From Lytechinus pictus (taxonomy: Eukaryota), in NCBI RefSeq assembly GCF_037042905.1, contig NC_087245.1:35590001-35654000 (forward strand): DNA of 64,000 nt, written 5' to 3'. The notes under the pieces were generated by a model, which was given only the letters and a program-made list of their open reading frames with translations, was not told the DNA's origin and did no database searches. Below, one piece after another: positions 18,525 to 58,446 of the stretch (positions within the stretch are counted from its first letter, which is position 1; each line of letters starts with the position of its first letter). The position numbers were made by a program, and so were the translations under genes.

Positions 18525-19013
18525 TGCTGATTAAGTGCCCCCCCCTCCCCTTCGGATGAGGAAATCAGCATCGCGATTGGATTGTGTGGCTGCATGGGGC
18601 TTCATGAATTGTATCACCTTCATATCCTGACAAAGCATTAAAATGATTGCCTGACATTTGTAAGAGAAAAGTGGAACAAAAAAATGTAGTATGGCCTCTA
18701 AATTTCATCATTAGATTACTTATGATTTGATAACTCTCATTACTTATCCCAACTTACTTCAATGCAGTACTTAATGCCCCGCCATTCTAGACTGCTAAAT
18801 GAGAAGAAATGTTCAAAATGACACAGGCCTTTGTAAACTTGTGACTGGTCATTAAAAATCCCGTGATCATGTTGTATGATAAAAGCGTCATAGTACATGA
18901 AGGTATGATATTATGCATTATTATTTGTTTCTCATTAGGTGTACATGTGTTGCATAATGCAAGCAAGCGAGGCAGCGAAGCGACAGTAGTTATGGGTGAG
19001 ACCTCATCCTAAT

Positions 19014-19320
19014 TGACCTTTGACCCGGTCATGACCTTTAACCTGGTCAGCCACGACCTTTGACCCATGACCTTTAACCTGGTCAGCCATGACCTTTAGC
19101 CCGGTCAGCCTTTGACCTTTAGCCCGGTCAGCCATGACCTTTAGTCCGGTCAGCCTTTGACCTTTAGCCTGTCAGCCTTTGACCTTTAGCCCGGTCAGCT
19201 ATGACCTTTAGCCCGGTCAGCCTTTGACCTTTAGCCCGGTCAGCCGTGACCTTTAGTCCGGTCAGCCTTTGACCTTTAGCCCGGTCATCCATGCCCTTTA
19301 CCCCGGTCAGCCTTTGACCA
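19014..19320 (+). repeat. Subterminal 22/23-bp tandem array (TGACCTTTAGCCCGGTCAGCC[A/TT]), left arm
   Basis: About 13-14 units read directly; mirrored at 25151-25457. Confidence 0.95.
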
Positions 19321-20133
19321 CACGACCCGATGGTTGACCCAGACTTCCGGTCAGCCATGTCACCATGAAATGGTATTACGACACAGTTATGCAACCACCG
19401 TGATGTCATCCCAGGGAATTACCCTTATTGCACCGTCGGTATTGCACCACCGTTGCGTCATCGCCGCGTATGGGTGACATTCGGTCGACATTATCACACG
19501 ATGCAGCGACGTTGCACGGGTATACGATACGATGCACAAAAACAAGACATCTATACAGTTTCCTATTTAAAAAGCGATCTTTCTCAAAAGCGATCTTTCT
19601 CCGCCTACCGGCGGATATGTCAACCGCCTCGCATGACGTCACCTGCTACATAAGAACCGTGATGTCATTCCAGGGAATTACCCTTTACCCGGTATTGCAC
19701 CACCGTGGCGCAATCGTCATCGCCACGTTTAGGATACGATGCACAAAACAGACGTATGATCTCTACACAGTTAAAAAGTGAAAAGTTATCTTTCTCCGCC
19801 TACCAGCAGATATGTCAAGCGCCTCGCGGTTCACGAATCGATCACCCCATGCACGGCCAACGCGCGTCATTGAACTTGGGATATCCTATAGGAAAGGTGA
19901 AAGCCGACTCTCTCTGCCTCTTATTACAACAATTATTGGTAATCCAACATGTGATTATAATCATGATAATAGTGACATCTCAGGCACTACTCATTCTAGA
20001 CTTTTCCCCATCAAAACTCTCTGACTTTTTCATACTGTTTTGTCCATACTTTTCATTTTAACTCACATGATCTGCCCGGCTCTCTGACTCGCAAAAAGTA
20101 TACAATATTGAAACCAGTAGATGACTTCTTTAA

Positions 20134-21197
20134 AGATCCAGACCGGACACGAAAATGAAATTGATAAATTATATACCAATCGAAAGCTTATAAGCTACTA
20201 AATACAGCAAGGTATGCTTTATGCATTTTCACCGCTTCCCAGCTGAGTATTTTGCTTGTGAATATTCCAATTATCGGGCTTCGAACCCCGCTTAGAATAT
20301 ACACTCTTAAAAATGTTGGGCAACATACGGTCCACACAACAATTGGTTAAAACTTTATCCAATTCTGGGTAGTTTTACACCAATACTGTGTAGTTTTCAC
20401 CCAAAGCACACATTATTGGTGTAAAACTACCCAGAATTGGATAAAGTTTTAACCAATTGTTGTGTGGACCGTATGTTGCCCAACATTTTTAAGAGTGTAG
20501 GCTTTATTGTGCTTTTCACCTGCCTCGAGACCGTGACGTCACGTTGTGTAAGAAGCATCGTGATTCCATAGGTTTGTACACAGAAAAACTGGGTGATTTT
20601 TTGCTTTCCAGATAACGCATTTCATTCTCTTCACTTCTATCACAGAGGGATATCACATATATTTTTACCCACAAGCTTGAATTTATGAAATCTACAGTTT
20701 TGAACTAGTTTTTGCCATATTTTATTTCCTGCTTATTTGGCGCAGATTTCAATTCTATCTGCATTTAGATTATGTATAACAACTTTTCCTGACATAGCAA
20801 TTTAGGCCCAATAAGAGCCAAACAAAGAAATCACAAAAAAGGTAGTGAATAGTTGTAGGTTTACAACAATTTGAACAGTGAATAATTTTGAGTGCCATTT
20901 TCATCTGAAAACGAAAAAAAAAAATGGATTCATAACATGGAAATGGAAGAAAATACCCAATGCTTTTGTACACAAACCTATGGAATCACAACCCTCCTGA
21001 CACAACGTGACGTCATCATTTCCAGGCGACGTGGGGGTGCTCAATCGAAGCGTACTTTGGAGGAGCAGTTTCTTTGATTTTTATTTAATATTTGTCAGAA
21101 ATGGAAGGAGATATATGTAATATTTTTGGTATATTTGTATTGTATGAATCATTACCTTTATTTTGATATATGACTGTTTTTACACCGGTCAGGGTCT
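20134..21197. mobile_element. Kolobok-like MITE inserted in the left arm only
   Basis: TTAA|AGATCCAGACCGG...CCGGTCAGGGTCT|TTAA, with internal inverted segments at ~20532-20593 and ~20956-21016. Absent from the right arm. Confidence 0.85.
20302..20497. mobile_element. CAC-ended (EnSpm/CACTA-like) hairpin MITE nested in the preceding element
   Basis: TA|CACTCTTAAAAATGTTGGG...CCCAACATTTTTAAGAGTG|TA, with ~80-bp perfect TIRs. Confidence 0.9.
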
Positions 21198-21590
21198 TTA
21201 AATCAACTTCATTCATACGCAGTACAGATGGTGATAACATGAAACACTATACAGTCAAGGATGATTCTTTATTATTATCATCATTTATTCTATTCCATTT
21301 CAATGTAGATAGGTTAAGATATTGTATTAACAGCAGATTTTGATACAAATGTAAATAATGTAAGTTATGTTCTCAAATTATGTTGTAATAACAAAATAAT
21401 TGTTAACTGTTCATTGTTAATATTAAAATGAAGTTCTCGTTTTTCTATTTCTTCGCTTAACTTAATGGATTGTAACACATGTATATGGATGGCATTCAGA
21501 AAATATGAACACAATGAAGTTCAAACTGTCATTTATGTTGACGGCGTTTTCTTGGATGATTATCATTTGACAAGCATGATGTTTGTGCCT

Positions 21591-22241
21591 TTAGTTGTAG
21601 ACTCCATCTTCGACCTCCGTTTCTACTCCACCATCATCATTATCGTCATCGTCACCTTGATACTGGAATAAACCATCGAATCGTGAACCATGCCTGGCTA
21701 ACACTCTCTGTACGGCTTTCCGGAATTCCATGCCATTCTCTAATCTTTCCGTGAGATCGGACACGATTTCACGATTGATGTCAGCGTCTTCGAGGTACAC
21801 GTTCTGCTGCAAGAACTGAGAGTAAAGATCGAAAAAGATACGTTTGACTGCCCAGAGTAGTTTCACGTGAGCCTTTGCTTTAGCGTCTTCTTCTTCCATT
21901 CCTTCTGAGATGTATTTCTGATATTTTTCGTCTCTCAAGTCCTCGGTGGCTGTCATGGCTTGGTCTAACCATCCTCGATAAGCGAGGTTGTCTTCAGTTT
22001 CTTCCATGTTTGCTGTCATTGACGATTCGTGTCCATCGCTTTCTGATACGCTCGTTCCGGAATCATCGTTGGATTCTTCAACTCTTTGCATTTGAGAGGA
22101 TGGGTCGGAGTCTTCATCTTCACTCGTTTCTTCTCCAGTATCATGCTCGTTTTGTTCATGCCTCTGCATATCATACTTCCTACTAAAGGTTTTATCGCAT
22201 CGTGAACAAGCGTAGCGGTTGGACATATCCAACGTATTCAT
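21591..22241 (-). CDS. Single C2H2 zinc-finger protein with acidic tracts (216 aa from first ATG), left-arm copy
   Basis: Intronless ORF with CSRC-x12-H-x4-H (YACSRCDKTFSRKYDMQRHEQNEH), a D/E/S-rich linker, a helical-looking C-terminal domain and an acidic tail. The ORF-track start at 22289 is a TTG. Confidence 0.8.
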   Translation of the reverse strand: MNTLDMSNRYACSRCDKTFSRKYDMQRHEQNEHDTGEETSEDEDSDPSSQMQRVEESNDDSGTSVSESDGHESSMTANMEETEDNLAYRGWLDQAMTATEDLRDEKYQKYISEGMEEEDAKAKAHVKLLWAVKRIFFDLYSQFLQQNVYLEDADINREIVSDLTERLENGMEFRKAVQRVLARHGSRFDGLFQYQGDDDDNDDGGVETEVEDGVYN

Positions 22242-22348
22242 GTTGACTCGATGATTATTTGTTGGGAAATGAAGAAAATTAACGTTCAACCTTGTAATAA
22301 TACGTAATCATGAAACGCGCGCGAAGGTACTTCGATTACTCACAATTC

Positions 22349-22707
22349 TTACGGATTTTTACGGATTTTTGCGGATTCTTACAGATTTTTACGGATTCTT
22401 ACGGATTTTTACGGATTCTTACGGATTCTTACGGATTCGTACGGATTCGTACAGATTTTTACGGATTCTTACGGATTATAGCCTACGGATTCTTACGGAT
22501 TTTTGCGGATTCTTACGGATTCTTACGGATTTTTACGGATTCTTACGGATTTTTTACGGATTCTTATGGATTTTTACGGATTCTTACAGATTTTTACGGA
22601 TTCGTATGGATTCTTACGGATTCGTACGGATTTTTACGGATTCTTACGGATTATAGCCTACGGATTCTTACGGATTTTTGCGGATTCGTACAGATTTTTA
22701 CGGATTC
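22349..22707 (+). repeat. 10-bp tandem array (TTACGGATTY)n, ~35 units
   Basis: Counted by eye; includes variant units and two TATAGCC-marked longer units. Confidence 0.95.
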
Positions 22708-22751
22708 ATCCACGTTGGAATGACCCCATGGGTCATTCCAACGTGGATGAA
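22705..22751. other. Perfect 22-bp stem / 3-nt loop hairpin at the centre of the palindromic element
   Basis: TTCATCCACGTTGGAATGACCC-CAT-GGGTCATTCCAACGTGGATGAA. Confidence 0.95.
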
Positions 22752-22786
22752 CATATTTTCCTTGAGATTATATGAAAGCATTAATT

Positions 22787-23203
22787 AATCCGTAGAATCT
22801 GTAAAAATCCGTAAGAATCCGTAAAAATCCGTACGAATCCGCAAAAATCCGTAAGAATCCGTAGGCTATAATCCGTAAGAATCCGCAAAAATCCGTAAGA
22901 ATCCATACGAATCCGTAAAAATCTGTAAGAATCCGTAAAAATCCGTAAGAATCCGTAAAAATCCGTAAAAATCCGTAAAAATCCGTAAGAATCCGTAAGA
23001 ATCCGCAAAAATCCGTAAGAATCCGTAGGCTATAATCCGTAAGAATCCGTAAAAATCCGTACGAATCCGTACGAATCCGTAAGAATCCGTAAGAATCCGT
23101 AAAAATCCGTAAGAATCCGTAAAAATCTGTAAGAATCCGCAAAAATCCGTAAGAATCCGTAAAAATCTGTAAGAATCCGCAAAAATCCGTAAAAATCCGT
23201 AAG
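22787..23203 (-). repeat. 10-bp tandem array in inverted orientation, ~41 units
   Basis: (RAATCCGTAA)n on the + strand; same variants as the left array but a different unit count. Confidence 0.95.
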
Positions 23204-23309
23204 AATTGTGAGTAATCGAAGTACCTTCGCGCGCGTTTCATGATTACGTATTATTACAAGGTTGAACGTTAATTTTCTTCATTTCCCAACAAATAATCAT
23301 CGAGTCAAC

Positions 23310-23960
23310 ATGAATACGTTGGATATGTCCAACCGCTACGCTTGTTCACGATGCGATAAAACCTTTAGTAGGAAGTATGATATGCAGAGGCATGAACAAA
23401 ACGAGCATGATACTGGAGAAGAAACGAGTGAAGATGAAGACTCCGACCCATCCTCTCAAATGCAAAGAGTTGAAGAATCCAACGATGATTCCGGAACGAG
23501 CGTATCAGAAAGCGATGGACACGAATCGTCAATGACAGCAAACATGGAAGAAACTGAAGACAACCTCGCTTATCGAGGATGGTTAGACCAAGCCATGACA
23601 GCCACCGAGGACTTGAGAGACGAAAAATATCAGAAATACATCTCAGAAGGAATGGAAGAAGAAGACGCTAAAGCAAAGGCTCACGTGAAACTACTCTGGG
23701 CAGTCAAACGTATCTTTTTCGATCTTTACTCTCAGTTCTTGCAGCAGAACGTGTACCTCGAAGACGCTGACATCAATCGTGAAATCGTGTCCGATCTCAC
23801 GGAAAGATTAGAGAATGGCATGGAATTCCGGAAAGCCGTACAGAGAGTGTTAGCCAGGCATGGTTCACGATTCGATGGTTTATTCAAGTATCAAGGTGAC
23901 GATGACGATAATGATGACGGTGGAGAAGAAACGGAGGTCGAAGATGGAGTCTACAACTAA
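23310..23960 (+). CDS. Single C2H2 zinc-finger protein with acidic tracts (216 aa from first ATG), right-arm copy
   Basis: Mirror copy of 21591-22241, differing by Q/K and V/E near the C-terminus. AATAAA at 24262 downstream. Confidence 0.8.
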   Translation: MNTLDMSNRYACSRCDKTFSRKYDMQRHEQNEHDTGEETSEDEDSDPSSQMQRVEESNDDSGTSVSESDGHESSMTANMEETEDNLAYRGWLDQAMTATEDLRDEKYQKYISEGMEEEDAKAKAHVKLLWAVKRIFFDLYSQFLQQNVYLEDADINREIVSDLTERLENGMEFRKAVQRVLARHGSRFDGLFKYQGDDDDNDDGGEETEVEDGVYN

Positions 23961-25150
23961 AGGCACAAACATCATGCTTGTCAAATGATAATCATCCAAG
24001 AAAACGCCGTCAACATAAATGACAGTTTGAACTTCATTGTGTTCATATTTTCTGAATGCCATCCATATACATGTGTTACAATCCATTAAGTTAAGCGAAG
24101 AAATAGAAAAACGAGAACTTCATTTTAATATTAACAATGAACAGTTAACAATTATTTTGTTATTACAACATAATTTGAGAACATAACTTACATTATTTAC
24201 ATTTGTATCAAAATCTGCTGTTAATACAATATCTTAACCTATCTACATTGAAATGGAATAGAATAAATGATGATAATAATAAAGAATCATCCTTGACTGT
24301 ATAGTGTTTCATGTTATCACCATCTGTACTGCGTATGAATGAAGTTGATTTTAATAAAGAAGTCATCTACTGGTTTCAATATTGTATACTTTTTGCGAGT
24401 CAGAGAGCCGGGCAGATCATGTGAGTTAAAATGAAAAGTATGGACAAAACAGTATGAAAAAGTCAGAGAGTTTTGATGGGGAAAAGTCTAGAATGAGTAG
24501 TGCCTGAGATGTCACTATTATCATGATTATAATCACATGTTGGATTACCAATAATTGTTGTAATAAGAGGCAGAGAGAGTCGGCTTTCACCTTTCCAATA
24601 GGATATCCCAAGTTCAATGACGCGCGTTGGCCGTGCATGGGGTGATCGATTCGTGAACCGCGAGGCGCTTGACATATCTGCTGGTAGGCGGAGAAAGATA
24701 ACTTTTCACTTTTTAACTGTGTAGAGATCATACGTCTGTTTTGTGCATCGTATCCTAAACGTGGCGATGACGATTGCGCCACGGTGGTGCAATACCGGGT
24801 AAAGGGTAATTCCCTGGAATGACATCACGGTTCTTATGTAGCAGGTGACGTCATGCGAGGCGGTTGACATATCCGCCGGTAGGCGGAGAAAGATCGCTTT
24901 TTAAATAGGAAACTGTATAGATGTCTTGTTTTTGTGCATCGTATCGTATACCCGTGCAACGTCGCTGCATCGTGTGATAAGGTCGACCGAATGTCACCCA
25001 TACGCGGCGATGACGCAACGGTGGTGCAATACCGACGGTGCAATAAGGGTAATTCCCTGGGATGACATCACGGTGGTTGCATAACTGTGTCGTAATACCA
25101 TTTCATGGTGACATGGCTGACCGGAAGTCTGGGTCAACCATCGGGTCGTG

Positions 25151-25457
25151 TGGTCAAAGGCTGACCGGGGTAAAGGGCATGGATGACCGGGCTAAAGGTC
25201 AAAGGCTGACCGGACTAAAGGTCACGGCTGACCGGGCTAAAGGTCAAAGGCTGACCGGGCTAAAGGTCATAGCTGACCGGGCTAAAGGTCAAAGGCTGAC
25301 AGGCTAAAGGTCAAAGGCTGACCGGACTAAAGGTCATGGCTGACCGGGCTAAAGGTCAAAGGCTGACCGGGCTAAAGGTCATGGCTGACCAGGTTAAAGG
25401 TCATGGGTCAAAGGTCGTGGCTGACCAGGTTAAAGGTCATGACCGGGTCAAAGGTCA
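25151..25457 (-). repeat. Subterminal 22/23-bp tandem array, right arm
   Basis: Reverse complement of 19014-19320. Confidence 0.95.
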
Positions 25458-27538
25458 ATTAGGATGAGGTCTCACCCATAACTACTAGCGACTGGGTTTT
25501 CTTTTTATGTATAAAACAAAATGTAAGGATATAAATGATAAATGATAAATGATGTAAAATTTGGATCAAATGTGGGGGGGGGGGGCTTATACACACACCC
25601 TTATGCCGTGTGGCCATGGATAAGATGAGAATGAATGATAATGATATTTTTTATGAAAGTAACATATAACTGCCTTGATGGATGACTGACGAAAAGAAGG
25701 CTCATGAATCTGTTGTTCAATGCTCTTGATGTCTACGGCAAAACAGTTTTATAGTCCATGGTCATTATTGCCATAATCATTTTTTTATTGAAAGGGGGAA
25801 AATGTAGATCGAAATATCCGTAATTTTATGGTGTAATAAAATAGCCGAACTTAATCATGCTCCCACTCTCTATTATTCTTAAAAAATTCCCTGACCATTT
25901 TAAAACTTTCTGAATGGGAAAATTTAAGAATCGTTTAGCTAAAGCGAAACGGTCAATGTTGTAAGTGATTATAGAAACTTTGATTTCCTATGGAATTTTT
26001 TCTCTAAAAAAACAACAAAAACACAACAGTTTCCACTGTTTTTTTGTTGTTGGACTTTTGGCAGAATAAAATCAAATCTGCATTTTTCTCCCTTGAGCTC
26101 TTCGGTTGATTATAATCATGTTCATCAGAAGTATGAAGATAGTGTTTTCTCCATTAATATACTGTAGCCATGATAGTTATACCTTCATGCCTGACTTTAC
26201 TCGACCGATTTTCAGATCAAGAAGAGATTAGTGAAATGATAGCGTAAAAATAATGTTGATCGGGACCATTGTCTTCAATCTGATTATCATAATCGCAATC
26301 ATGATTATATCACTTGTAGCATTATTTGCCATGAGGTTCCAAGAGAATGAATTTTTGGTTGGATAAGTCACATTCGATTGCCCACCAGTCTGTGTCTCTT
26401 CTTCGTTGCGCCTATCAGCACATCTGTCATGTTCCTTTTCGCTTGATCAATAGCGCAATACAGTCTTCCGATTCACAAGAAAAGATAGCCATCTCATAAA
26501 AAATGATTTGAATCTCATTTAAAAAAAATGATCCGCTGAATTGAATTTAGATTCCGCCAGGACGATAGTTGTATTTCGCAAAACCAGAGATAATGATGAA
26601 TATTGAAATGAACCTCTTTTTTTGCGCGCGCGCGTACAAAAGTGTTTTGTTACCCCTTTTCAGAGTTTAATTCTTCCATAATTATTGTTCATGACCAGTC
26701 GACTGAGTTGAATCAGTTGATTGACGATATTCTGATTAGATGGATTGGAGGGAGGGGAGGGGGACTAAGGAAAATGGAGCAATACGCTGTTGATTTCTGA
26801 ATATTATGTCAAAATCTATCACGAAATGAGATGTTTGTATAAAAGGTCAGAATTCGAGCCCGTGAACAGATCTCCACATGAAATAAAATGTTCTGCGATT
26901 TCACATTGCGAAGACGTGGTCAGAAGTAATTTTGCATATCCAAGTTTATCAATAATGACGAGAAATTTGATTAACGCAGCGATTCCTCGTGAATATCCTT
27001 TTTTGTATGAAGTTAGCTATAAATGATGCTTGATAATAATAAAAAATATCCAAATGTAAATTCATATTAATTATCCACATGTGATGTCACCCTAATCTAG
27101 CTTTTAACGATAAAGCAAATAAGAAGGGAAAGTATAATGGAGTAAAAAAATGATAAAGTGATAAGAAGAAATCAACATATACTGGGTTAGTAAGAACATT
27201 ATTATTCCCCTCAGATCATGGAGGTTGATAAAATGGGTTTTTTTCTTTTATCTTTACATATACTTAATTTAAACTAGAAAGTAAAAGTCTACACATGTGG
27301 ATGTGAATATGCGGTATCCTGTGTTGGAAGGCGTCGGAGGGCGAGACGGTTTGGAGAAGAATGTGTCTCTGTCCACATCATTAACAAATATCACTGGCAA
27401 TTGCATTAATGAGTGATGTATCTAATAATGATAGTTCATTTGAATCTAGTGGAGTGCATCGATGATCATGTTTGCCTTGACATTATACTGAACACGATGT
27501 CTTTAATAGGCTTAATATCACTCAAGCTTGATACTTAA

Positions 27539-30398: not shown

Positions 30399-33300
30399 CA
30401 GGTCTACTTACAGATCATGGTAACTAGGGTTAGGGCTAAAGAAACTTGGTCCATCAATGTCATAATTTTTCCTCTCAGTCCAACCATCACCGTCTTGGCC
30501 TAATACTTGGCCTAACTATCATTTAGTCTAATGCCTTCGTCTACTTCGCACTTCATCAAATGGAAATTAGGTTTATAAACAATTCATCCAAATCATCTTG
30601 GCCACTTTAGTGTTAAGCAAACTGGGTATTAGATGAAATGGATGTAACCTAACTGGAAATGAGACCATATGGTCAGTTTACGATCTAGTGGGCGTTTCAT
30701 GAAAGTTGTCAGCACTGACTAAATTGTCAGTGCTGACAATTTCAGTGAAATCATTGGTTTTTGATTGGCTGAAAGGCACTGGCCTCTGACTGTTACTATG
30801 GTAACTGTCGGAGAAAGACAAACACCAGTTTGGAATCAAACTGATGCTGTTTTAATACTAATTGGTGTTGTATAAACACCTATATATCTGGTGTTAGACC
30901 AAAACGAAACTGGTGTTGTTTAACACTTCTCCGGGCTGGTGTTAAATCAACACCAGAGTTTTTGCAGTGTATTTACTGGTTTCTTGATTCCTCCGTACAT
31001 CGCAGAGTGAAAAATCCCAATTGTAGGGAACAGAGGGTGCTTACCTCGTGACAAGAAGTGTGTGACTTTTGTAATCAAGACGCGTGGATCTTATGATTAT
31101 GGATTCCTTTGATGAAAAACAAGATTTTTATGATTTCCTGACGTAGGAAATCCGTAGAAGTGGAGATATGATAGAGTGGCGTTTGGTGCATTGTTAGGTA
31201 CAATGAGCTTCCGTTATATCATAAACATGAAAATCCCTCTTTTAATCCGGCTATAGTCTTCCAAGGAAAAATTATTTCCAAACTGTTTGGTAAAACGCTT
31301 TCAAGAACGAACAGTTACCGAACAGCGGAGTTATTTCAAGGATTTGCATAGATCATCCAGCGTATCAGGAAGATATACTGAAAACGAATATATTATTGTT
31401 AAATGTGCTCAAATATTCACGGACTTAGTTTCTTGATTTTTGTTAATGGTATAACGAGGTTTCTTAAGGTTTTAAATAATTGATTACTCGATATGTAAGG
31501 AAAGATTAAATTAATTATGTAGACCGAATGGATGTGGATGGTACTCATACAGATTATTTGAGGTAAGTCTCACTCGCTCTAAAAAAATAGTAATAATAAT
31601 AATTGGGATAGAGGGCACATCGACCGGTGCCTAAGAATAGGAAGACAAATCAAAATGTCAAAAATCTTTCATTATTATTAGTATCATGAGCACCCAATGT
31701 CTCTTGTAGAACTATGACTAGAGCATACTCATAGAAAAGCAGGCAGAGACAAGTTATAAATTACATATTTTTTTAGTGTAAATCATTGAATATTATATAT
31801 TCTTTTATTTTTGTCCTTGCACTTTGACTTTCATGATCAAATCAGGCGAATAGCCTGGTCAGCTGTGTATCTCTATCCAAAATAAATCCATATAGATTTA
31901 AAATTTCTATCCAAAATTTATAAATCCTTCATAAACCTCACATGGGTTTAGATATTATTTGTCTTCGAGTTATTTTTATTCTAGTTGATTTTTTTTATTT
32001 TGATTTCTGTTTGATTCATTTTTATTCGTGTATTCCTTCTAATTAAAATCACGATTAATAAAAGTATGCGAATGTCATAATACAAACCCAACCCCCTGTC
32101 CAAAGTACTCACAAGCTAGAGGCGGTGCTGCGGGGAAGGGGGTAGGGGGGGGGGTAGGGGTCGACAACTCCTCATATGATTGTTTAGGTAGAGTAGAGGG
32201 GTAGAAACAAAGAGAGCCGAACACGAGAGAGAGAGAGAGACAGGGGGGGGGGGGGTGAAGACAAGAAGAATAGGAAAAAGAGGGCTACCAACCATGAGAA
32301 ATGTTGGGCCTGCCAATACCTGTATCGTTCAATTAAGAATGAAATGGCGTATCATAGGTCGCCTTGCTCTCATGGCCCCGCCCGCCCTTATTGCAAAAAA
32401 CGCCAGAGGGTAAATTGTAAATGGATCCGCCTTTACATGCTTGATGTACTGTTGACTTGTACTCTCTGTCTTGGACCCTGCCTGCCATGGCGCCAGTCCA
32501 TGCACGGGGTCAGGGTGATAGCCCCAATGGCTTTTCAAGTGGTGGGGAGAAATGAAAGGGGGAAAGGAAAATTAGAGGACTAGAATGAAAGTTTTTCTCT
32601 ATACCCCTTTGATTTAATTGAAAAAAAATTGATGCCCCCATCAAATATGCGTGACGCCGCCCTTGGACTTTGCTCAAACCGAACCCGTACCAACATCTAT
32701 CAAACCAGGTACCATTTAAAAAAAAAACATATACAGCCCCTGTATGGCCATTGCTTTCAAAAGAATAAAGATACTTCGCAGAATTATTTGCAAATGTCCT
32801 TTAGAAAAGGTAAAAGACGGATTTTCCCGAATTCGACGATAACTATAATGAAATTAGTCCGTGTAGAGCGCAACCGAACTAGAGCAACAATACTCGAGTA
32901 ATTCTATACAGGTAAGTGGGATCTGTGCCAAACCTTCCGACTGTTACAACAGTCCCATGTCTTGCAAGTGTATTTTTGTATCATCTTTATGTATGGTTGC
33001 TCTGTTCGACCTACTTCCATACATTAATTTAAAAGAGAGGTCTATATATTTTGAGTACCTTTCGACTATTATGACTATTCGAAATGTGTCTGACTGTAAT
33101 AGTATTCAAGGTGTGCTTAAGCCCCATTCAATCATCTACATTCCAGAGAGCATCGCTTTTGTATAACTCAACCTGGAGATCTAGGCTAATTGAGCCCCTT
33201 TCGGTATGCGCAAACATGAAGAATTCTCAAAAAGTCACAATTGCTTACAGTTTTGTACACAAAAATATACCTTAGAATTGAATCTACGGATTTGTCATCG

Positions 33301-34679
33301 TTTCGTCTATATATTTTCACATCACTATTATGATTGGCGCAAACTGGAATACTGATGCTTGATGGGCAATTCATCAATTCTCAATGAATGAAACAATTGT
33401 TTTCATTTATAGATGCACATAGACTGAAAACACATGTACAGATAACTAATTTAATATCCCATTTACCTATGTTATGCGGTTATGTTTCTGAATTTATACT
33501 CATCGTTAACATCAAAAGATGAAAATATTTCCTGACACCAAAATATTAATAATATTTTGGTGTCAGGAAATATTATTATGATTATATATAAAGGGAACGA
33601 TTAAACTAAAAACAAATTAATATTGAATAATTACTATTATATTTCCATGGAAGCGTGCGAGTGGTTTTACTCTCCTTGTTATGAGAAGTTTAATGTTCGA
33701 ATCCTATACCATGGCGCGGTCATCCACATTTTGCCAAACTCCACAGCTTCATCAGCCTCGTATGACTAGTAATAAGAGCAGTAATTGAATTTGAAAACTC
33801 TGGTTAAAATTTTCCCAAGGGAGTGAAGATTGTTTGCAGATTTTTTTTACGCGGGCAAAGAAGAATCCTATCACCGAGGTAATAATAATAATATACTGCC
33901 ATCTAAACTATATCATTTATACTAATAGATAATAAATATAATAAATAACGCGATTCTCTTCATATCGTTTAAAAAACAATCGTACAGCTATTCAATGTGT
34001 GCGATTTTCCCCCTTTCTTTATTTTCTTTTATATATTCGGCTTCATTTGAATGAAATATAAATCTTTTTCGTTGGAAATTTGGTCTCTGTAACTTGATTC
34101 CTCATGTTCTTCTACAATCAGCAGGTTTATATATAGTTTATCATGAAATATGATAAACCCTATAATACCATCATAATAATTAAGCATAACGTATCAAGAT
34201 GGTTTTTGTTTTCCCATCGAAGTTGATTATTTTGTTGATAATAATCAGCAACCTTTAGACATAATCATTGATTATCTCTTCCAGTAAACATTTCTAGCAT
34301 CGAAGGACGTACAATTGACGGCGACTTTGGACAAATATAAGTGTGTAATTAATATGATTAATTATACCCTTCTCGGAGCAATGTCTTGATAGCAATGTTG
34401 GTTTTTTTCGTCTACAGGTTGGCCAATCTGTTTCGTTTGTCAAGTTTCTGCATCGAGAAGATAAGATGGATAGTATGAGCTGAACCCCATCTTTCTCGAA
34501 ACTAGGAATCTGACATGACTGTGGCTCGTCACAATCAGAGGGAAGAATCAAGCCAGTCAATGTGAGTTTTACGATAGTTGAATGTTTAGATTAAAATTGG
34601 TGAAAGCTTTGATTTATCGGGGTATGTGCTAACCCCAAGCTTACGCAATGCAGGGCCGCATAATAGCTCCATGATTTAA

Positions 34680-41074: not shown

Positions 41075-41593
41075 CACAGTGTGCTTAACCAATGAATGCT
41101 CATTTTCATAGTTTTTGGACAACCTGAAGATTATGACACAGTATGGTCTCCACAGTTTGACAATGGAAATCATCATTGTGCCCACACTGTTGAAAATATG
41201 CTAAATGAGTGTGAAAACCTGTGTGACCCCCCTCCCCCCACCGTGTGTATCATACTACAGTGTGGTAACAGATTCTTACAGATTGATTGCATTCAGTGAA
41301 ATGTTTCACAGTGTAGGCCAACGGTGTGATTGCATTCTGAATACATAGTGTCACCACCATCATAGTGTGAACAATATAGTACCACAGTGTGGCTACCTAG
41401 TAGATGATATTCCACAGAATGACTAACCTGTGATTACTATTTCAGTGTGCTACTCTTAATTTCACAGTGCATCCACACACAGTGAAACAGTGAAAGAGTG
41501 TGTTCTGACATCACAGTGTGAATGGCAGTGTGATATAGAACATAGTGTGAAGTGCAATACGCTACATCGTTGTTCACACTGTATTTCTTCCAG
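41075..41593. repeat. Degenerate CACAGTGTG-motif repeat (probable DNA-transposon internal repeats) in SDR intron 1
   Basis: Many CACAGTGTG/CACACTGT variants. Confidence 0.5.
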
Positions 41594-41663
41594 CAGGAAC
41601 GTTCAAAATTTACGAAATTTTCAATGGGAAAACGTTCTTTTCTATTCATTCGATTCCATGCAG

Positions 41664-41935
41664 GGGTGCGAGTGGTGTTATGGGATATCAACGCTTCTGC
41701 CGTTGAAGAAACGGCGAAGATCGTACGCGTGAACGGCGGAAAGGCCTGGTGGTATACTTGTGACGTCACCAAGATGGAGGAGGTCAACGAGACTGCGCAG
41801 AGGGTGAGAGAAGAGGTCGGGGACGTGACCATGCTGATTAACAACGCAGGCATTGTGACCGGGAGGTACTTCCAGGATTTGAAAGAAGAAGATTACCAGA
41901 GGACAATGAATGTTAATTCATTGGCCCATGCTTGG
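41664..41935 (+). CDS. SDR16C-family dehydrogenase, exon 2
   Basis: CAG acceptor; VVLWDIN, CDVT and LINNAGIV motifs; GT donor at 41936. Confidence 0.93.
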
Positions 41936-42225
41936 GTAAAGACTGCTTCTTGTCTGTAATTGGTTATAGAAGTTTGCCACTCGGGAGAGGCAACAAGGGT
42001 GAGGAGGGGGGGGGGGGGGCAGGTCGCCTGTATGATTTTTTCTTCTAAGAAGAGAAAGGAGGAGAGGAAGAAAAGTAAGAATTATCTGGGTCGTATAACT
42101 CCATTCCATGTCATTCAATTGAAGGGGGGGGGGGTCTCTTGTTGATCATCTACCCCCCCCCCCCACCACTCTGTCAGGTTCAATCACGTCACATAATGTA
42201 GTCACTGTAGATTTCAGTATCTAGC

Positions 42226-43718
42226 TGTAGGGTCCATTGATCTTTGCTGATTGAATTCTACCGCCATGTTTACACCAACGCTGCGTCCATGCAGTTCTCG
42301 CTGCGTCAACGAAAAATTGATGTGAAGCAGGAACTGCTACAGCGTACCGAGATCGCAGCGAGAACTGTTATTGACGTAGAATAGTCTGCATGATCTCCGG
42401 AGACACATTTTCCGCAACGTGGATTTTGAACATGTCCAAAGTCCACGTAGCATGCAGAAGCGCCGTCTGATGAGCGCGTATATAGTAATTACGCAGTAAG
42501 GACCTCCTTAGGACCTACTAAAAGCTCAAACGACGTAGTATAGACTAGCCAAAACGGGAAGAATGTAGCAACAACTTTGCCCATGTGTGCTTCGCGGCTG
42601 CCACTCAGATTCAGTTGTTGCTACGTCCTGTACACCAGTAATGACCGCACAGAGGCCCTGTTGCAATCGGTAATGTAGCAGCGTTGCCTAAATGTTTCAA
42701 CAGTGCATTATGTACACATTTAAATAAATGTTTAGAATTCAGAATCCGAAAGATGTGACTGGGCTAACTGTTTGCGATCTGATAGGCTAACAACGTTTCT
42801 ATTCGGCTGGCACTGATGAAGTTGTCGCTATGTTGTTGAATAACAGAAGAAATCCTAGGATGCGGCGCCAACTTCATTTGATTTTCTAAAGAAAAATGAA
42901 ATTGTCAAGTGCATGCTACGTCCGCGCCACGTCCTTGCGAAGTTCTCACGAGGTTTATTTTGCGCGCAAGAGCGGTCCATGCTGCATCGAAACGATTCCC
43001 GCTACGTTCTGATCATCATCTAGTGGATTGCGCGACTTGTAGTACCTTCGTCTGTTTTGGACGTAACACCAACTGAGTGTGCGTGGTGACCTCGTAGTAG
43101 CAGTACAGTAGAAATTGACAGAGTTGTTTGTTGCCACGTTCTTACCATGTCCGCTACGCCTATGCTACGTCGATGGAGTTGTAAGTAGGTCCTTAATGCG
43201 TCATTACTATGCACTATTCAGATCGCGCTCCCGCTACGTGGACTTTGGATATGTTCAAAGTCCACGTGGCGGAAAATGAGTCTGCGGAGATCATGCAGAC
43301 TATGCCACGTTAATAACAATTCTCGCTACGCTCTCATAACGCTGTAACATTTCCCACTGCGTCATGGCCATTTTCATTTGACGCAGTGAGAAATTACTGC
43401 CTGAACGTAGCGCTGTTGTAATGGGGGTACAGTTGGCGCTACGGCAGTCCAAATAGACGAGGCGCAGCAAGTCGCGTAATCTGCTGGATGTATATAGTCA
43501 GAACGTAGCGGGAACCGTTTCGACGTAGCATGGACCGATTTTGCTCGCAGAATAAACTTAGTGGGAGCACAACACACGCAACATAAACTTCAAAATGACG
43601 TGGCGCGGACGTATCATGCACGTGAAAATTTCACATCATTCGAGAAAATCAAGCGACGTAGGCGCCACGTCCTAGGTTTTTTTTTCTGAATTTCACCAAC
43701 GTAGCGGGAACTTGGATT
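42226..43718. mobile_element. Large inverted-repeat non-autonomous DNA transposon in SDR intron 2
   Basis: ~42376-42510 is an imperfect reverse complement of ~43180-43310. CGTAGC/GCTACG motifs; ends are approximate. Confidence 0.6.
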
Positions 43719-52175: not shown

Positions 52176-52619
52176 TGCATGGTAACTCCTGTTAGGAAGT
52201 CGATGCAATATGAAGACGAGTCATAATCTATTGAATCCTGTCATTCTGCAATTCTGCTGATTTAATTGCATTCCTTTAATTTATCGTTCTGTTTATTGAA
52301 CAATACACTAAATCTTTGTTGACATATATTTTCATTGCTAATATATTATTACGATTATGGTAGTATAGTATTGATTTGTTATATATTGTCTTTGAATAAG
52401 TTATGTCGTGTAATAATTTCTGATGTTAATGCAGAAATCAAATCAATCGCAAACTCTACCACATATAATTGAATAATGTCTTACTATAATGTCTTGCTAT
52501 ACTTCACGAATCATGTCCAAGTGCAATTCAACAAAACTATTTCAATTTATTTGTTCAGAATAATACGACATGTTTTTTTAATAAATAGAATACTAAGTGA
52601 AACTTATCGTTTTGTTAAG

Positions 52620-52856
52620 GATATTGGTGAGTTCGACTGGGACAGCGAAACACAAGAGTTCATCCTGGCCGGATTCTTCTATGGCTATATATTCACTCAG
52701 CTGCCTGGCGGATGGCTCGCAGACAAATTTGGCGGGAAATTTATTTTCGCACTGGGCGTGCTGTGTACGAGTCTCTGTTCTCTGGTCTTCCCCGTCGCTT
52801 CCTACGCAGGACCCGGCGTCGTGTTTACGACGAGAGTAATTTCGGGTCTGGGAGAG
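52620..52856 (+). CDS. SLC17 transporter, exon 3
   Basis: FDWDSETQEFILAGFFYGYIFTQLPGGWLADKFGGK...RVISGLGE. Confidence 0.95.
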
Positions 52857-53518
52857 GTGAGACTATTTTTGACTATTTTTTTCAGATGCCAGAACGAAAG
52901 CGAAACAATATCTACCACATTCCATAACTTTTTCAGATTTGGTTTATAATTATGTAGTCCCTATTTTTTTACGATGTTAGATATTGAAGCTTTAATATGT
53001 TTTTTATTAATCAAGTACCAAATATTTGGAATGAAAGAAAGAAATATCTTATTGTTAATTTTTTGAATTTCTTTTCAATTATCTGTGAGAACAAGTGAAT
53101 CTTTTGTTGGATTCTTTATCATATTTCAGGAAAGTTGCATAGGAATGATTGATCCTATAATGCCACACTCACTAGGCCTATTTCTTTTGTATAATTTTAA
53201 TATACGTAATGTGAAATATAATACAGCCTTTATATATATATAAAAAAATACATTTATGTTGATTAAGACGAATTAAAAAAATGGATGATATCATATTTCA
53301 TTTAAGGAAATACAAAATATATAGTGAGTGACCGACGTCATCGCTTCCCCTATATTATACTGAACACGATGCGTATGAGTGAATATAAGTGAAACTTTTC
53401 AAAGCTATTTTTGTTTCTATTCAATTTTGATGAAATTTGATTTTTATGCGTGTTTTGTTTTTCTATCTTTGTTTAAATGAATAAAAACGATGTGCTATTA
53501 CATTTACAATCACAACAG

Positions 53519-53606
53519 GGATTTACATTTCCAGCCATGTTTTCACTGTTCAGTAATTGGGTGCACCAGGAAGAGAGAGGTAGATTAGCCGTTGTTACCT
53601 TCTCAG
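53519..53606 (+). CDS. SLC17 transporter, exon 4
   Basis: GFTFPAMFSLFSNWVHQEERGRLAVVTFS; CAG/GTGAG boundaries. Confidence 0.9.
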
Positions 53607-53639
53607 GTGAGCTAGTTTCCCTCTATTCCTACTCCTCAT

Positions 53640-53944
53640 AATAAAAATAATAACAATAATAATAATAATAATACTATATGATTTGTATAGCGCACGTATC
53701 CACCTAGCTAGGTGCTCAAGGCGCTCCTATATTACCCCGGCTATATAAGCTAGTCTACCGATTCTGGTGCGCACAGCTTTTTGAGGAATTACTTCCTGCC
53801 GGTACCCATTTACCTTACCTGGGTCGAGTGCAGCACAGTGTGGATAAATTTCTTGCTGAAGGAAAACATGCCATGGCTAGGATTCGAACCCACGACCCTC
53901 TGTTTGAAAGGCGAGAGTCAGAACCACTAGACCACGACACGCCC
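53640..53944 (-). mobile_element. tRNA-derived SINE (variant of the 17706/61673 family)
   Basis: Minus-strand head GGGCGTGTCGTGGTCTAGTGG...GGTTCGAATCC; shared body TTCCTTCAGCAAGAAATTTATCCACA; (TTA)n tail. Confidence 0.85.
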
Positions 53945-53969
53945 ATCATTATCATTAATAATAAATAAT

Positions 53970-54190
53970 AAAAATAATAAGGTTTTACTTACCAAGAGTA
54001 GCCACTTCAGTTAGGAAACTGCTCTACCAGCGGTTCCTGCATAATATAATATGTTAATACCCTGCTCCAATCTACAAGTAATTGCTGAGCGCCTAGCAAG
54101 AAGGCAGAAGGTCCCGCATTTTTTTAAGTCTTTGGATCGAACCGACGACCTCCCGTTCATGAGGCGGACGCTCTACCACTGAGCCACCTT
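53970..54190 (-). mobile_element. tRNA-derived SINE, different family
   Basis: Minus strand GGTGGCTCAGTGGTAGAGCG...GGTTCGATCC (A/B boxes), then CCAAAGACTT...GCGCTCAGCA. Confidence 0.65.
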
Positions 54191-54197
54191 GCGTTAT

Positions 54198-54325
54198 CCA
54201 TCATCATCATCATCATCATTATCACCATCATCACCATCATCACCATCATCACCATCATCATCACCATCACCATCACCATCATCATCATCATCACCATCAT
54301 TATCATCATCATCATCATCACCACC

Positions 54326-54356
<31 letters not shown>

Positions 54357-54571
54357 CCATCATTATCATCATCATCATCATCATCATCATCACTATCATC
54401 ACCATCATCATTATCATCATCATCACAATCACCATCATCATCATCACAATCATCATCATCATCATCACCATCATCACCATCATCACCATCATCATCATCA
54501 TCATCATCATCATAATCATCATCATCATCATCATCATTATCATCATCATAATCATCATCATCATCATCATT

Positions 54572-54602
<31 letters not shown>
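54198..54602. repeat. (CAT)n microsatellite of ~400 bp; degenerate CAT-rich sequence continues to ~55340
   Basis: Read directly. Confidence 0.97.
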
Positions 54603-55803
54603 ACAGAAACAGTGGCAATATCAGCAGCAGGGGCATGGGACGATTTGTGTAAAGGGGGTGGCTGGTTTGGTAATAAAAATGACAAGCAAAAAAAAATCAC
54701 TACAAAACGAAGGTGATTTTAGCTAAATAAAGAAAGAGGGGGGGGGGCTTATGCTCTAATAATGAGAATTTCTAGCATAGCATACCAACCTGATTTCCAG
54801 GGGTCAGGGGTGCTGCTTTTGGGGATGGTCCAGCACCCTAGCAACCATGATTACCAGCAACAGTAGTGGCAGAAGCAGTGGCAACATCAACACCATCATA
54901 ATCATCATCATCATCATCGTCATCATCATCATCATCATAATTATCATCATCATCATCAACAGCAGCAGCATCACCATCATTATCAGTTCTAACAGCAGTG
55001 GTAACATATTCATTAGCAGAATCAGCATCATGGGCCAGGGTCATCAGCGTCATCACCACTCACATTGGTCATCATTATCATTAAAATCATCATCAGTCAT
55101 TGTCATTTTCATTAGCATCATCATCATCGTGGTCATCATCATTCTTTTTATGTCCCTCCTCATTTTTGTAATCATGTCCACGGTCGTCATCAACGTCGTC
55201 ATTGTCATGGTCATCGTTTTCATCATTACATCAACACCACCTTATCGCGATGTTGATCATCTTTATTCTGTATAATTATCATCTCCATCATCCTCATCAA
55301 AATCTTTATTAGCTTTGGCATCACTATCGTCCTCGTCTTTCCATAATTACCCCGATTAATGCCATAATCACACACACACCAATGAAACCTGCTCCAAACC
55401 GATCGATGACATGTCATTGGAACGTAATAGCTTTGATCGGCTTTGATCGGCCCGTTGCAGAAAGAGTTGCAATCAATCGCAACCCTAAAAATCATGCGTA
55501 ACTTGATTTTCAACCAATCAACAGCGCGCATTTGGGACTTGCGATTGACTTTTTTGACTTGCATTTAAACGCAACTCTTTCTGCAACGGACCCCTGATGT
55601 TGGTTTCGTTTATTTATTTATTTATCAACAATATTTCAACAGGATACCCAATCAACATAAAAATTGCTCTCCCTTGGGGTCCTGCTATTAAAAAACAATC
55701 ACAATATGTCTTATTATACACAGTAAAATTAACTACGTTCGTTGGTGTAACTGAACTTACCGCCTTGCCCTTACTACGTTTTGATTCTTGTTTCTCTCCA
55801 TAG

Positions 55804-55899
55804 GTTCGTGTCTTGGTAATATCCTCGGTCAAGCAATCTCCGGAGTGACTGCATCCACAGGTGTCTTGGGAGGATGGCCATTGCCATTCTATATATTCG
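55804..55899 (+). CDS. SLC17 transporter, exon 5
   Basis: GSCLGNILGQAISG...GGWPLPFYIFG; TAG/GTAAC boundaries, phases 1/1. Confidence 0.9.
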
Positions 55900-55938
55900 G
55901 TAACGAGTGTTTTCATTGTCAAAACTAGAGCCGTGTAT

Positions 55939-56030
55939 GGTGCCGTGACCGAGTGGTCTAGGCCAAGGCGCCCGACTACATCATGAAAGTCCGGGGTTCG
56001 ATTCCCGGCACGGCCCATGATCAAGGCATT
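55939..56030 (+). mobile_element. Truncated tRNA-derived SINE head
   Basis: GTGACCGAGTGG A box and GGTTCGATTCCC B box; does not fold as a canonical tRNA. Confidence 0.55.
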
Positions 56031-57166
56031 ATCTATATTACTCTTTTATCTTACATTAAAATAATGAAACTGATGTAAAAAAAATAGATAATATTTTACA
56101 ACTAATAAGATGAGGCTCCACGATGGAAATTGGGGAGGGGGTGGTCTTAAAACAATCCCATGTATGTCATAACTGGGATTGGGCCAAATGTTTTATTTCT
56201 TTACAGCAATATACCCAATAAGACCTTTCATGAAATGTATGTCATTGCTTATAAGTGATTGAATTTTATTTGAATCAAGGAATAAAATGGTAACTTGTTT
56301 GCTTAATTTTTTTCTTTAAGTGAAAACTATTAAAACTATCTTAAAAATATTCCTTGGATTTTGAAAATATAGGTAAGATGGTTCCTTGACCCCCTCTCCA
56401 AAAGAACAGGGACGGCGGAACGGTTTTCAAAGTAGGGGGCTGACCATGCAAAAAATCACAATCATATTATGGTTATTTTTACGTTTTTGTACACGGTTTT
56501 GGAAAAAAGTGGGGGGCTAAAGCCCCCCCCCCCCCCGCTTCCGCGGCCCTTGAAGAACACAATAAAACCAGATTGAAATCATAAATCACAAAGATTTTTG
56601 TCTTCGTATTGTATTATCACAAATTTGAATCTTGAATGATGGCCTAAATTAACTGCACAATCAAAACAAATCAGTCAAAATAACTAGGTAATCGGGTCAG
56701 CTTGGTATAATTGTTATTCTTGACTATTTTCTAGTCTTATTTCACTAGAACAGAGTTGTTTCTGACTAGAATATATGCCAGAAATGTGACTAGACATATC
56801 AGTTCCGACCAACTGACTTCAGTGGAGCGTTTCATCAACATTTTCGTCCGACAAGTTGTCAGATCTGACAGCTTTTCTTGATTTTGATTGGCTGAGATGC
56901 ACTGTTACCATAGTAACTGTCGGATAAAACAGTACTTGTCGGATAAAACTTCTGACAAACCCTTTCATGAAATGCTCCCCTAATCTAGTCGATTTAACTG
57001 ATTTGTCTTTAAAAGTGTGTAATTCAGGTTAAGGACACATTTTATTTTTGAGAGCTACACACTCCTTTTAAACTCTACGATTTTATTTATACGGCATTTT
57101 ATTAAACCAATTGTGGTTATTTAATTCACTTTATACTACTCACTTTCTATATGTATTCTCTTTCAG

Positions 57167-57288
57167 GAAGCATGGGGCTTGTCTGGTTTGTAGCTTGGTT
57201 ATTTCTCGCATACAATACCCCTGCAGAGCACCCGAGGATTTCTCTGGCTGAACGAAAGTATATCGAATCAGGGGTATCAATAAAAAAG
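57167..57288 (+). CDS. SLC17 transporter, exon 6
   Basis: GLVWFVAWLFLAYNTPAEHPRISLAERKYIE (family P..HP.IS..E..YI motif). Confidence 0.93.
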
Positions 57289-57729
57289 GTTTGTCATTAC
57301 ATTTTTCTTTCATTGACTTGATCTAAAGGAGTAGGTCCGTATCAACATAAAATCTATCGAAAATAACGCACGTATGAACAAAGATATGGGAGAAAAGGAG
57401 AGAGAGAGAAAGAGAGACGAAGGGGTAAGGACTATTTTTATTGGGGGGGGTGTAGGCAACTTGTCCTCTGTTTAATTTGTCATGTTGGTATATTATCCCA
57501 ATCCTTCGCAGTCTTATGATATAAATCTACATGTTCATAATTGGAAGTTAAAAATTCATGGACTGGGGGGGGGGGGGATGTTGGGGGACGGGTAAGAAGT
57601 AGACCTGACACATGTTCAATTATTCGTACAAATTTCTCATCCACATAAATAGTGACTGTTTTCTTATTTCAAACGCAGTTCTTTAAGATGGTCTGAATTA
57701 TAGTTCGAAAAAGTGAACTCCAACAACAG

Positions 57730-57761
57730 GGGGCTGTTTCATGAAAATACTTGTCGGACAT

Positions 57762-57792
<31 letters not shown>

Positions 57793-58120
57793 TTCATTTA
57801 TTCATTTGTTTAAGAACAGGGAAGCCCATTGAACAATCCGACAAGTCCAATTTTATCTGACAGTTACCATAGGAACAGTGCCTTTCAGCCAATCAAAATC
57901 GGGGAAAGACGTCAGATCTGACAACTTGTCGGATGAAAATGTTGATTAAACGCAGCTACCAAGGGGAGCGTTTCATCAACATTTTTGTCCGACATGTTGT
58001 CAGATCTGACATCTTTCCTTGATTTTGATTGGCTGATAAGCAATGTTACTATGGTAACTGTCGGATTAAATAAGACTTGTCGGATAAAACGTCTGACAAT
58101 TCCTTTCATGAAACGCTCCC
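57730..58120. mobile_element. Two adjacent, oppositely oriented Harbinger-like MITEs (GGGAGCGTTTCAT family)
   Basis: GGGAGCGTTTCATCAAC...ATGAAACGCTCCC|CAG at 57964-58120, preceded by an inverted copy at 57730-57960. Another copy is at ~56823-56980. Confidence 0.75.
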
Positions 58121-58242
58121 CAGGACTCTATTCGGTGTTTTCTTTCTATCCTTCTAATTAATGATACGTGGTAATAATGGATTTCTCATACATGTGTGAT
58201 AATATGGAACTAATGATTTGTGGATCATACTTCTGCTTGCAG

Positions 58243-58398: not shown

Positions 58399-58446
58399 GT
58401 AAGCTTCCCTTCCATCGTTATTATATTATATTATATATATATATAT

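What the first reader, a model, noticed from the sequence alone, without database searches (positions are those of the whole stretch)
22705..22787. Perfect 22-bp hairpin plus a ~35-bp unique spacer at the fold-back centre
Seen: TTCATCCACGTTGGAATGACCC-CAT-GGGTCATTCCAACGTGGATGAA begins inside the last unit of the left array. A non-palindromic AT-rich spacer (22752-22786) follows, then the inverted array. The small hairpin is off-axis from the large palindrome and unrelated to the array sequence. Inference: it may be the template-switch trigger that produced the snap-back, or a dedicated turnaround/resolution site like parvovirus hairpins or protelomerase/resolvase targets. Flip/flop orientations of the centre would then be expected among copies.
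Basis: partly seen in the sequence, partly recalled or inferred. Interest (0 to 1): 0.72.

Follow-up and report, generated by a model that had tools for sequence, protein, structure and literature searches.

The report
Leftover hairpin inside fold-back Maverick transposon
The small DNA hairpin is real, but it looks like a leftover piece of a longer parent element inside a mirror-image, virus-like jumping gene of a sea urchin, not the special turning point that made the mirror.

Summary
The perfect 22-bp hairpin (22705-22751, loop CAT) and the unique spacer are real. They lie in the 86-bp core of a 6,502-bp fold-back element (18985-25486) with Maverick/Polinton ends (AGTAGT...ACTACT, 6-bp target duplication), no Maverick core genes, and one zinc-finger ORF in each 2.7-kb arm. 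Two outside data points speak against a dedicated turnaround site. (1) In 1 of 4 runs laid, contigs carry the hairpin arm and spacer, then run on at 22790 into at least 255 bases of unique DNA instead of the inverted array. The real joint is thus 22790/22791, 39 bases past the hairpin, at a 4-base microhomology. (2) A 39%-identical relative of the arm gene also sits beside a fold-back of inverted arrays, with no such hairpin (L001). Best reading: hairpin and spacer are the surviving edge of a longer parent's core, joined to the opposite array by deletion; a copy-back helped by the hairpin is the main rival. Each point rests on one or two contigs; no genome was held, flip/flop was not testable, and no autonomous parent was found.

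The parts
18979..18984 (+). left copy of the 6-bp target site duplication (AGCGAC)
   Evidence: of lengths 2-11 only 6 gives identical flanks
18985..25486 (.). whole fold-back element, 6,502 bp, termini AGTAGT...ACTACT
18985..22704 (+). left arm (about 2.65 kb plus a 1,064-bp insertion)
19014..19319 (+). subterminal 22-bp repeat array, left (mirror at 25152-25457), rich in TGACC/GGTCA
20133..21196 (.). 1,064-bp insertion in the left arm only, short inverted ends between TTAA copies, holding a nested 200-bp inverted-repeat element at 20300-20499
21591..22241 (-). left copy of the 216-aa C2H2-finger/acidic/helical ORF, pointing outward
22345..22704 (+). left 10-bp array, 35 units
22705..22751 (.). 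perfect hairpin, 22-bp stem, loop CAT
22752..22790 (+). unique AT-rich stretch; start of the parent's longer unique DNA
   Evidence: X3 records 14 and 15
22787..22791 (.). joint 22790/22791 with 4-base microhomology AATC (22787-22790)
22791..23206 (-). right, inverted 10-bp array, 41 units; three extra inner units, two of types absent from the left array
23310..23960 (+). right copy of the 216-aa ORF (P0001)
22791..25486 (-). right arm, 2,696 bp
25487..25492 (+). right copy of the 6-bp target site duplication

Best explanation
The hairpin and spacer are the last 86 bases that remain of the unique core of a longer, Maverick-ended parent element. In the parent they lay directly inside the 10-bp array, upstream of the zinc-finger gene, and the sequence went on beyond the spacer (shown for one relative, at contig level). 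The window's copy arose when DNA at 22790 was joined through the 4-base microhomology AATC to an inverted 10-bp array (joint position shown; mechanism inferred). Most likely the parent already had the array and gene in both arms, and the core was deleted down to 86 bases by microhomology-mediated joining (inferred). The element has no enzymes of its own; its ends and 6-bp duplication imply integration by a Maverick integrase supplied in trans, and as a single strand it would snap back into a 2.7-kb stem that restores a double-stranded end for a protein-primed polymerase (inferred from the published Polinton model). The hairpin is then a passenger or an ordinary cis-element of the parent, not the turning point. 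I put about 0.8 on 'inherited, not the turning point' and about 0.55 on the whole account with deletion as the mechanism.
For: run X3: record 14 (111 nt, depth 33.9) matches 22727-22781 with 3 other letters; record 15 (395 nt, depth 37.5) matches 22753-22790 with 1 other letter and a loose end of at least 255 letters follows 22790, the 30 shown carrying no array motif and no match in the window. The two records overlap by about 30 bases, as neighbouring pieces of a 31-letter-word assembly would. The break falls exactly on the spacer/array border, which a chance insertion would rarely hit. A loose end behind 22747 is a variant of the 10-bp array, so hairpin and array are neighbours there too (assignment to record 14 inferred from lengths and depth); unique parts of the arms differ at 5 of 2,275 bases, yet the inner edge of the right array has three extra units, two of types found nowhere in the left array, so it is not a clean copy of the present left edge. 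L001: a 39%-identical gene sits beside inverted arrays that turn around within array units, with only 7-10-bp array-derived stems. Ends and duplication match Mavericks (PMC8097293, passages).
Against: Only 1 of 4 runs laid (4 of 16 listed) covers the centre, with two contigs; it shares 0.14 of the sampled words and may be another species or subfamily, so it is a relative, not the proven parent. The window's own joint was seen in 0 of 4 runs. What lies before the opposite array in that relative is not shown, so a two-array parent is inferred. The arrays also differ elsewhere by three or four unit-size indels and several substitutions, so edge differences could have arisen after a copy-back. No autonomous element with this gene was found. 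L001 is one short contig whose stem ends at the contig's first base.
Confidence: 0.55

Rival explanations
1. Copy-back with the hairpin as helper: a polymerase copying inward from one end of a Maverick passed array, hairpin and 39 more bases, stalled, and its 3' AATC primed on a GATT of the array in the same new strand, copying the arm backward. The hairpin, folded in the new strand, halves the loop and brings the end near the array. The product is like an asymmetric snapback genome of AAV and was then integrated.
For: Joint close to the hairpin with a microhomology that pairs with array units spaced about every 10 bases; the fold of the centre is a three-way junction closed by array pairing; arms of 2.7 kb exceed the 46-1,447 bp terminal repeats of vertebrate Mavericks, so one end was duplicated at some time; strong DNA structures cause template switching and self-complementary genomes in AAV (PMC7397707, PMC8235507, passages).
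Against: A single copy-back gives a right array no longer at its inner end than the left and made of left-array units; the right array has three more inner units, two of new types. The new strand folded alone did not pair its 3' end with the array. L001 folds back without such a hairpin.
Confidence: 0.25
2. Dedicated turnaround or resolution site (parvovirus-like hairpin, protelomerase or resolvase target) shared by the family.
For: Perfect stem; hairpin kept next to a variant array in a relative; palindromes at the termini of some protist virophages and Polinton-like viruses have been proposed to prime replication (10.64898/2026.07.28.741278, passages).
Against: Off-axis by about 20 bases; internal, not terminal; unique DNA continues past the spacer in X3; absent from L001; no matching enzyme family in the element's long ORFs; the relative's loop seems about 6 letters longer (inferred from record lengths, letters not shown).
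Confidence: 0.07
3. The hairpin is a small palindromic mobile element (mini-MITE) or a local inverted duplication unrelated to the fold-back.
For: Another perfect 25-bp hairpin lies at 33524-33574; the element has taken other insertions.
Against: No second copy in the window or in viral contigs; no evident target duplication; in X3 it has the same neighbours, spacer on one side and array on the other. The genome could not be searched.
Confidence: 0.08
4. The whole palindrome is an assembly or library artefact.
For: The window's joint was seen in 0 of 4 runs, although a 31-letter-word assembly of this copy would give a piece across it.
Against: Symmetry stops exactly at Maverick end motifs flanked by a 6-bp duplication and unrelated flanks; arms differ by substitutions, array length and a 1,064-bp insertion. 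Contigs show presence, not absence.
Confidence: 0.03

Closest known systems
Maverick/Polinton elements (PMC8097293; 10.1101/2023.08.22.554363; passages read)
   Same: 5'-(AGT)2...(ACT)2-3' ends, perfect 6-bp target duplication, inverted terminal repeats, an accessory-type ORF near the end.
   Different: 6.5 kb instead of 13-25 kb; no polymerase, integrase, ATPase, protease or capsid ORF; inverted arms of 2.7 kb that include a gene, against 46-1,447 bp; core only 86 bp.
Asymmetric snapback genomes of adeno-associated virus (PMC8235507, passages read)
   Same: One end of a virus-like genome duplicated in mirror form around a short unpaired loop; head-to-head promoters pointing outward as in 3' snapback genomes.
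   Different: Chromosomally integrated with integrase-type footprint; no parvovirus terminal hairpins or Rep; the small hairpin is not on the axis.
Terminal palindromes of Halocafeteria virophages and Polinton-like viruses (10.64898/2026.07.28.741278, passages read)
   Same: A short palindrome of about 50 bases in a Polinton-type element.
   Different: Those lie at the termini next to the target duplication; this one is internal, 2.7 kb or more from either end.
Foldback transposons such as Drosophila FB and sea urchin TU (recalled, from no call)
   Same: Long inverted arms with internal tandem repeats and a variable middle.
   Different: Ends and 6-bp duplication are Maverick-type; recalled target duplications of those families are longer.

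Membership tests
Maverick/Polinton | (AGT)2//(ACT)2 end motif | tested here: met
Maverick/Polinton | perfect 6-bp target site duplication | tested here: met
Maverick/Polinton | terminal inverted repeats | tested here: met
   far longer than the 46-1,447 bp range
Maverick/Polinton (autonomous) | polymerase, integrase, ATPase, protease and capsid genes | tested here: not met
   longest open frame in the element is 238 codons; the arm ORF and three further frames of 125-132 codons were scanned against Pfam with no such family; the other 15 of 20 frames of 80 codons or more, among them the left ORF copy and array frames, were not scanned
Maverick/Polinton (non-autonomous derivative) | ends or arm gene shared with an autonomous element | tested here: inconclusive
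   no genome held; no hits in viral or prokaryote contigs; four relatives lie on contigs of 10.6-16.7 kb that could not be read
Parvovirus hairpin / protelomerase or resolvase target | palindrome on the symmetry axis or at the terminus of the replicon | tested here: not met
   axis 22728 against midpoint about 22747; internal
Parvovirus hairpin / protelomerase or resolvase target | flip and flop forms among copies | tested here: inconclusive
   one relative only; its loop bases next to the right stem match the window's orientation
Parvovirus hairpin / protelomerase or resolvase target | same centre in other fold-back members | tested here: not met
   L001 turns within array units; X3 continues into unique DNA; one case each
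Parvovirus hairpin / protelomerase or resolvase target | cleavage by a cognate enzyme | not testable with these tools
   needs biochemistry
Mini-MITE | dispersed copies in unrelated contexts | tested here: inconclusive
   none in 64 kb; same neighbours in X3; genome not searchable
Known structured RNA family | Rfam match at gathering score | tested here: not met
   0 of 7 matches reach the gathering score; all are microRNA-precursor models that fit any long stem

The most novel reading that the evidence does not exclude
A widespread family of gene-carrying fold-back satellites of Mavericks exists in marine invertebrates, with the zinc-finger gene and an array in both arms, and the array-adjacent hairpin is a conserved working site of the sea urchin branch (for example a dimeric-protein binding site: its core is an everted TGACCC/GGGTCA pair, the same half-site that fills the subterminal arrays) that had to be kept when the core shrank to 86 bases. 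The satellites would replicate as snapback molecules and express their gene from two outward-facing promoters.
Probability: 0.12. Interest if true: 0.7.

Novelty: new variant of a known kind. Interest (0 to 1): 0.38.

Why it matters
For the hairpin itself the result is mostly deflating: it is probably inherited DNA beside a repair-type joint. What it does give is a mapped joint and a partial parent for one Maverick-ended fold-back element, which makes the question of how such mirror elements form (deletion against copy-back) testable with one genome search. If gene-carrying fold-back satellites prove to be a regular product of Maverick replication, they would be the chromosomal record of snapback defective genomes for a group whose replication has, to my recollection, been modelled rather than observed. 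Their outward-facing ORFs may also feed host transcripts: two Lytechinus gene models fuse this ORF's start to host enzymes.

Tried and rejected
No whole genome was held, so copy number, dispersal and flip/flop could not be counted. Arm protein or alignments against viral contigs: 0 confirmed loci in 4 scans; against prokaryote genome contigs: 0 in 2 scans; the 51-sequence alignment was too divergent to give patterns. Terminal 19-mer and hairpin 19-mer in viral contigs: 0 matches each. Runs X1, X11 and X14 gave only array pieces (6 of 26 bins each); their lack of cover over the centre proves nothing. The one joint that one search lists (22672 to 22794, opposite strands) is array DNA fitting both arrays, not a fold-back. 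Structure of the arm protein: confident finger and helical domain (mean pLDDT 81), but no viral match at E 0.001 or better and best Z 7.3 among generic helical hairpins; no function follows. ESM Atlas gave only generic zinc-finger clusters. Rfam gave nothing at threshold. Earlier-finding look-ups by place and by sequence gave nothing. Seven paper searches on Polinton/Maverick with palindrome, hairpin, foldback, snap-back or non-autonomous terms listed no paper whose title or abstract start describes such gene-carrying fold-back Mavericks; the library lacks most subscription papers, the two original Polinton/Maverick papers were not read, and repeat databases were not available, so this is weak evidence of novelty. 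Supplements were not read. Adjacent locus numbers among Lytechinus pictus and other relatives were considered as a hint of paired copies and set aside: orientation is unknown and one pair may be isoforms.

Full report
Observation. The hairpin is exactly as described: 22705-22726 pairs without mismatch with 22730-22751 around CAT. The centre folds at -34.1 kcal/mol, z -9.1, with 0 of 200 shuffles as stable, and the analytic expectation of such a stem in the window is 1.6e-7. The arm occurs nowhere else in the window within 3 mismatches. It starts in the last partial unit of the left array. A second, unrelated perfect hairpin of 25 bp at 33524-33574 shows that such stems occur elsewhere in this genome.

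Surroundings. The centre belongs to a 6,502-bp element at 18985-25486. It starts AGTAGT, ends ACTACT and is flanked by a 6-bp duplication, the only length from 2 to 11 that fits. These are the commonest Maverick end motif and duplication length (PMC8097293, passages). Each arm holds, from outside in, a 22-bp array, non-coding DNA, a 216-codon ORF pointing outward, and a 10-bp array of 35 (left) or 41 (right) units. Outside arrays and indels the arms differ at 5 of 2,275 bases; the left arm alone carries a 1,064-bp insertion. No frame exceeds 238 codons, so no intact polymerase or integrase fits, and the four frames scanned matched no such Pfam family. The arm protein has one C2H2 finger slightly below Pfam's cut-off, an acidic tract and a helical domain without a clear structural match. 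Its closest named relatives are Lytechinus pictus proteins, up to 94% identical over part of the length, so the host is very likely a sea urchin; the family is wide, with 44 representatives at 50% identity scoring E 1e-30 or better, a few of them long multi-finger proteins that match only through the finger. Symmetry stops exactly at the end motifs and the arms differ, so an assembly artefact is unlikely (inference).

What the centre is. No genome was held. Of 16 runs listed (best share 0.24), I laid four on the 155-base centre at 85% likeness. Three gave only array pieces. Run X3 (share 0.14, species relation to the window unknown) gave two informative contigs of like depth. Record 14 (111 nt, depth 33.9) matches loop, right stem and spacer, 22727-22781, with 3 other letters. 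Record 15 (395 nt, depth 37.5) matches 22753-22790 with 1 other letter, and a loose end of at least 255 letters follows 22790; the 30 letters shown have no array motif and no match in the window. The two records overlap by about 30 bases, as neighbours in such an assembly should. A second loose end, behind 22747, is a variant of the 10-bp array; by length and depth it is most simply the far end of record 14, read through the second stem into the array, with about 6 more letters in the loop (inferred; the letters are not shown, and 23 pieces were not listed). So in a relative the order is array, hairpin, spacer, further unique DNA. The window leaves that sequence exactly where its inverted array begins, at 22790/22791, with AATC shared by both sides. 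The hairpin is therefore older than the joint and 39 bases away from it. A chance insertion in the relative at exactly this border is possible but unlikely. The window's own joint was seen in 0 of 4 runs, though a piece across it would be expected from a run with this copy; contigs do not show absence.

A second relative. The one metagenome scan gave 1 confirmed locus among 102 pattern matches: L001, 1,613 bp, 39% identical. Upstream of its ATG lies a fold-back: base 1 pairs with base 324 in a perfect 94-bp stem, and inside are inverted arrays of a 9/13-bp unit. The turn lies within array units, with stems of only 7 and 10 bp made of those units. The stem reaching the contig's first base is what an assembler gives inside a longer palindrome, but a short fold-back or a chimera is not excluded. 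If real, the layout gene-array-turn-array recurs in the family, while the hairpin does not.

Mechanism. Shown: the ends, the duplication, the joint position relative to one relative, and the array differences. Inferred: how the joint formed. A single copy-back primed on the left array predicts a right array that is no longer at its inner end and is built of left-array units. Instead it has three extra inner units, two of types absent on the left, in arms otherwise 99.8% alike. That favours deletion, through AATC, out of a parent that already had arrays on both sides (about 0.55). Against this, the arrays differ at other places too, and the far side of the relative's core is unseen. Copy-back aided by the hairpin (about 0.25) has a good model in AAV, where strong DNA structures cause template switching and asymmetric snapback genomes with a loop are common (PMC7397707, PMC8235507, passages); and since arms of 2.7 kb exceed known Maverick terminal repeats (46-1,447 bp; 100-1,500 bp), one end must have been duplicated at some earlier time. 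A dedicated resolution site is unlikely (0.07): off-axis, internal, not shared with L001, no enzyme. What the hairpin did in the parent is not shown. One lead: its core is an everted TGACCC/GGGTCA pair, the only such pair with spacing 0-8 in the window, and the same half-site occurs 14 times in the 311-bp left subterminal array against 0.89 per kb outside the element. Reading it as a nuclear-receptor half-site is recalled, and a 22-base arm would hold one by chance about 2 times in 100.

Comparison and novelty. It works like a non-autonomous Maverick; it is not an autonomous one, and descent from a given Maverick was not shown. Short palindromes in Polinton-type elements are reported at termini (10.64898/2026.07.28.741278, passages), not internally. 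Passages read in PMC8502044, PMC6431247 and 10.1101/2024.01.15.575659 did not describe such fold-backs; seven searches listed none, with the limits given above. Unchecked notes of this scan report similar Maverick-ended palindromes in this and other animal genomes; they are leads only, but suggest the element type is recurrent and not special to this hairpin.

Verdict. Observation confirmed; interpretation partly supported. The hairpin is most likely inherited core DNA beside a microhomology joint in a fold-back Maverick derivative: a new variant of a known kind, interest 0.38.

Noticed in passing
window 20133-21196 and 24350-24358: A 1,064-bp insertion with short inverted ends between TTAA copies (Kolobok-like, label recalled) is in the left arm only; the right arm has 4 more bases at the same site than a clean empty site would, like an excision footprint. 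If so, the insertion predates the mirror or was copied across and then left the right arm.
   Followed up: partly
window 20300-20499: A 200-bp, 94% palindromic small element nested in the insertion.
   Followed up: no
window 33524-33574: Unrelated perfect hairpin, 25-bp stem and 1-base loop; shorter perfect stems at 142-180, 30706-30739 and 43236-43267.
   Followed up: no
window 19014-19319 and 25152-25457: Subterminal arrays carry 14 TGACC(C/T)-type half-sites in 311 bp, with direct pairs at spacing 1, the layout recalled for nuclear-receptor DR1 sites.
   Followed up: partly
proteins P0012, P0015, P0002 (relatives of window 23310-23960): Lytechinus pictus gene models fuse the first 65-90 residues of this ORF to a sialyltransferase-like and a hydroxylysine-kinase-like protein, and one repeats the N-terminal part; the element may donate a first exon to host genes, or the models are wrong.
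   Followed up: partly
window 19397-19827 (mirror 24660-25074): An old internal duplication of about 235-260 bp spacing, 77-89% alike, within each arm.
   Followed up: no
L001 1-342: Fold-back of inverted 9/13-bp arrays with a TATA-like stretch just outside the stem, about 60 bases before the ATG of the related gene.
   Followed up: partly
window 41437-41959 and 52473-60817: Exon-like frames resembling a short-chain retinol dehydrogenase and an SLC17-type transporter (by eye, names recalled); host genes downstream of the element.
   Followed up: no
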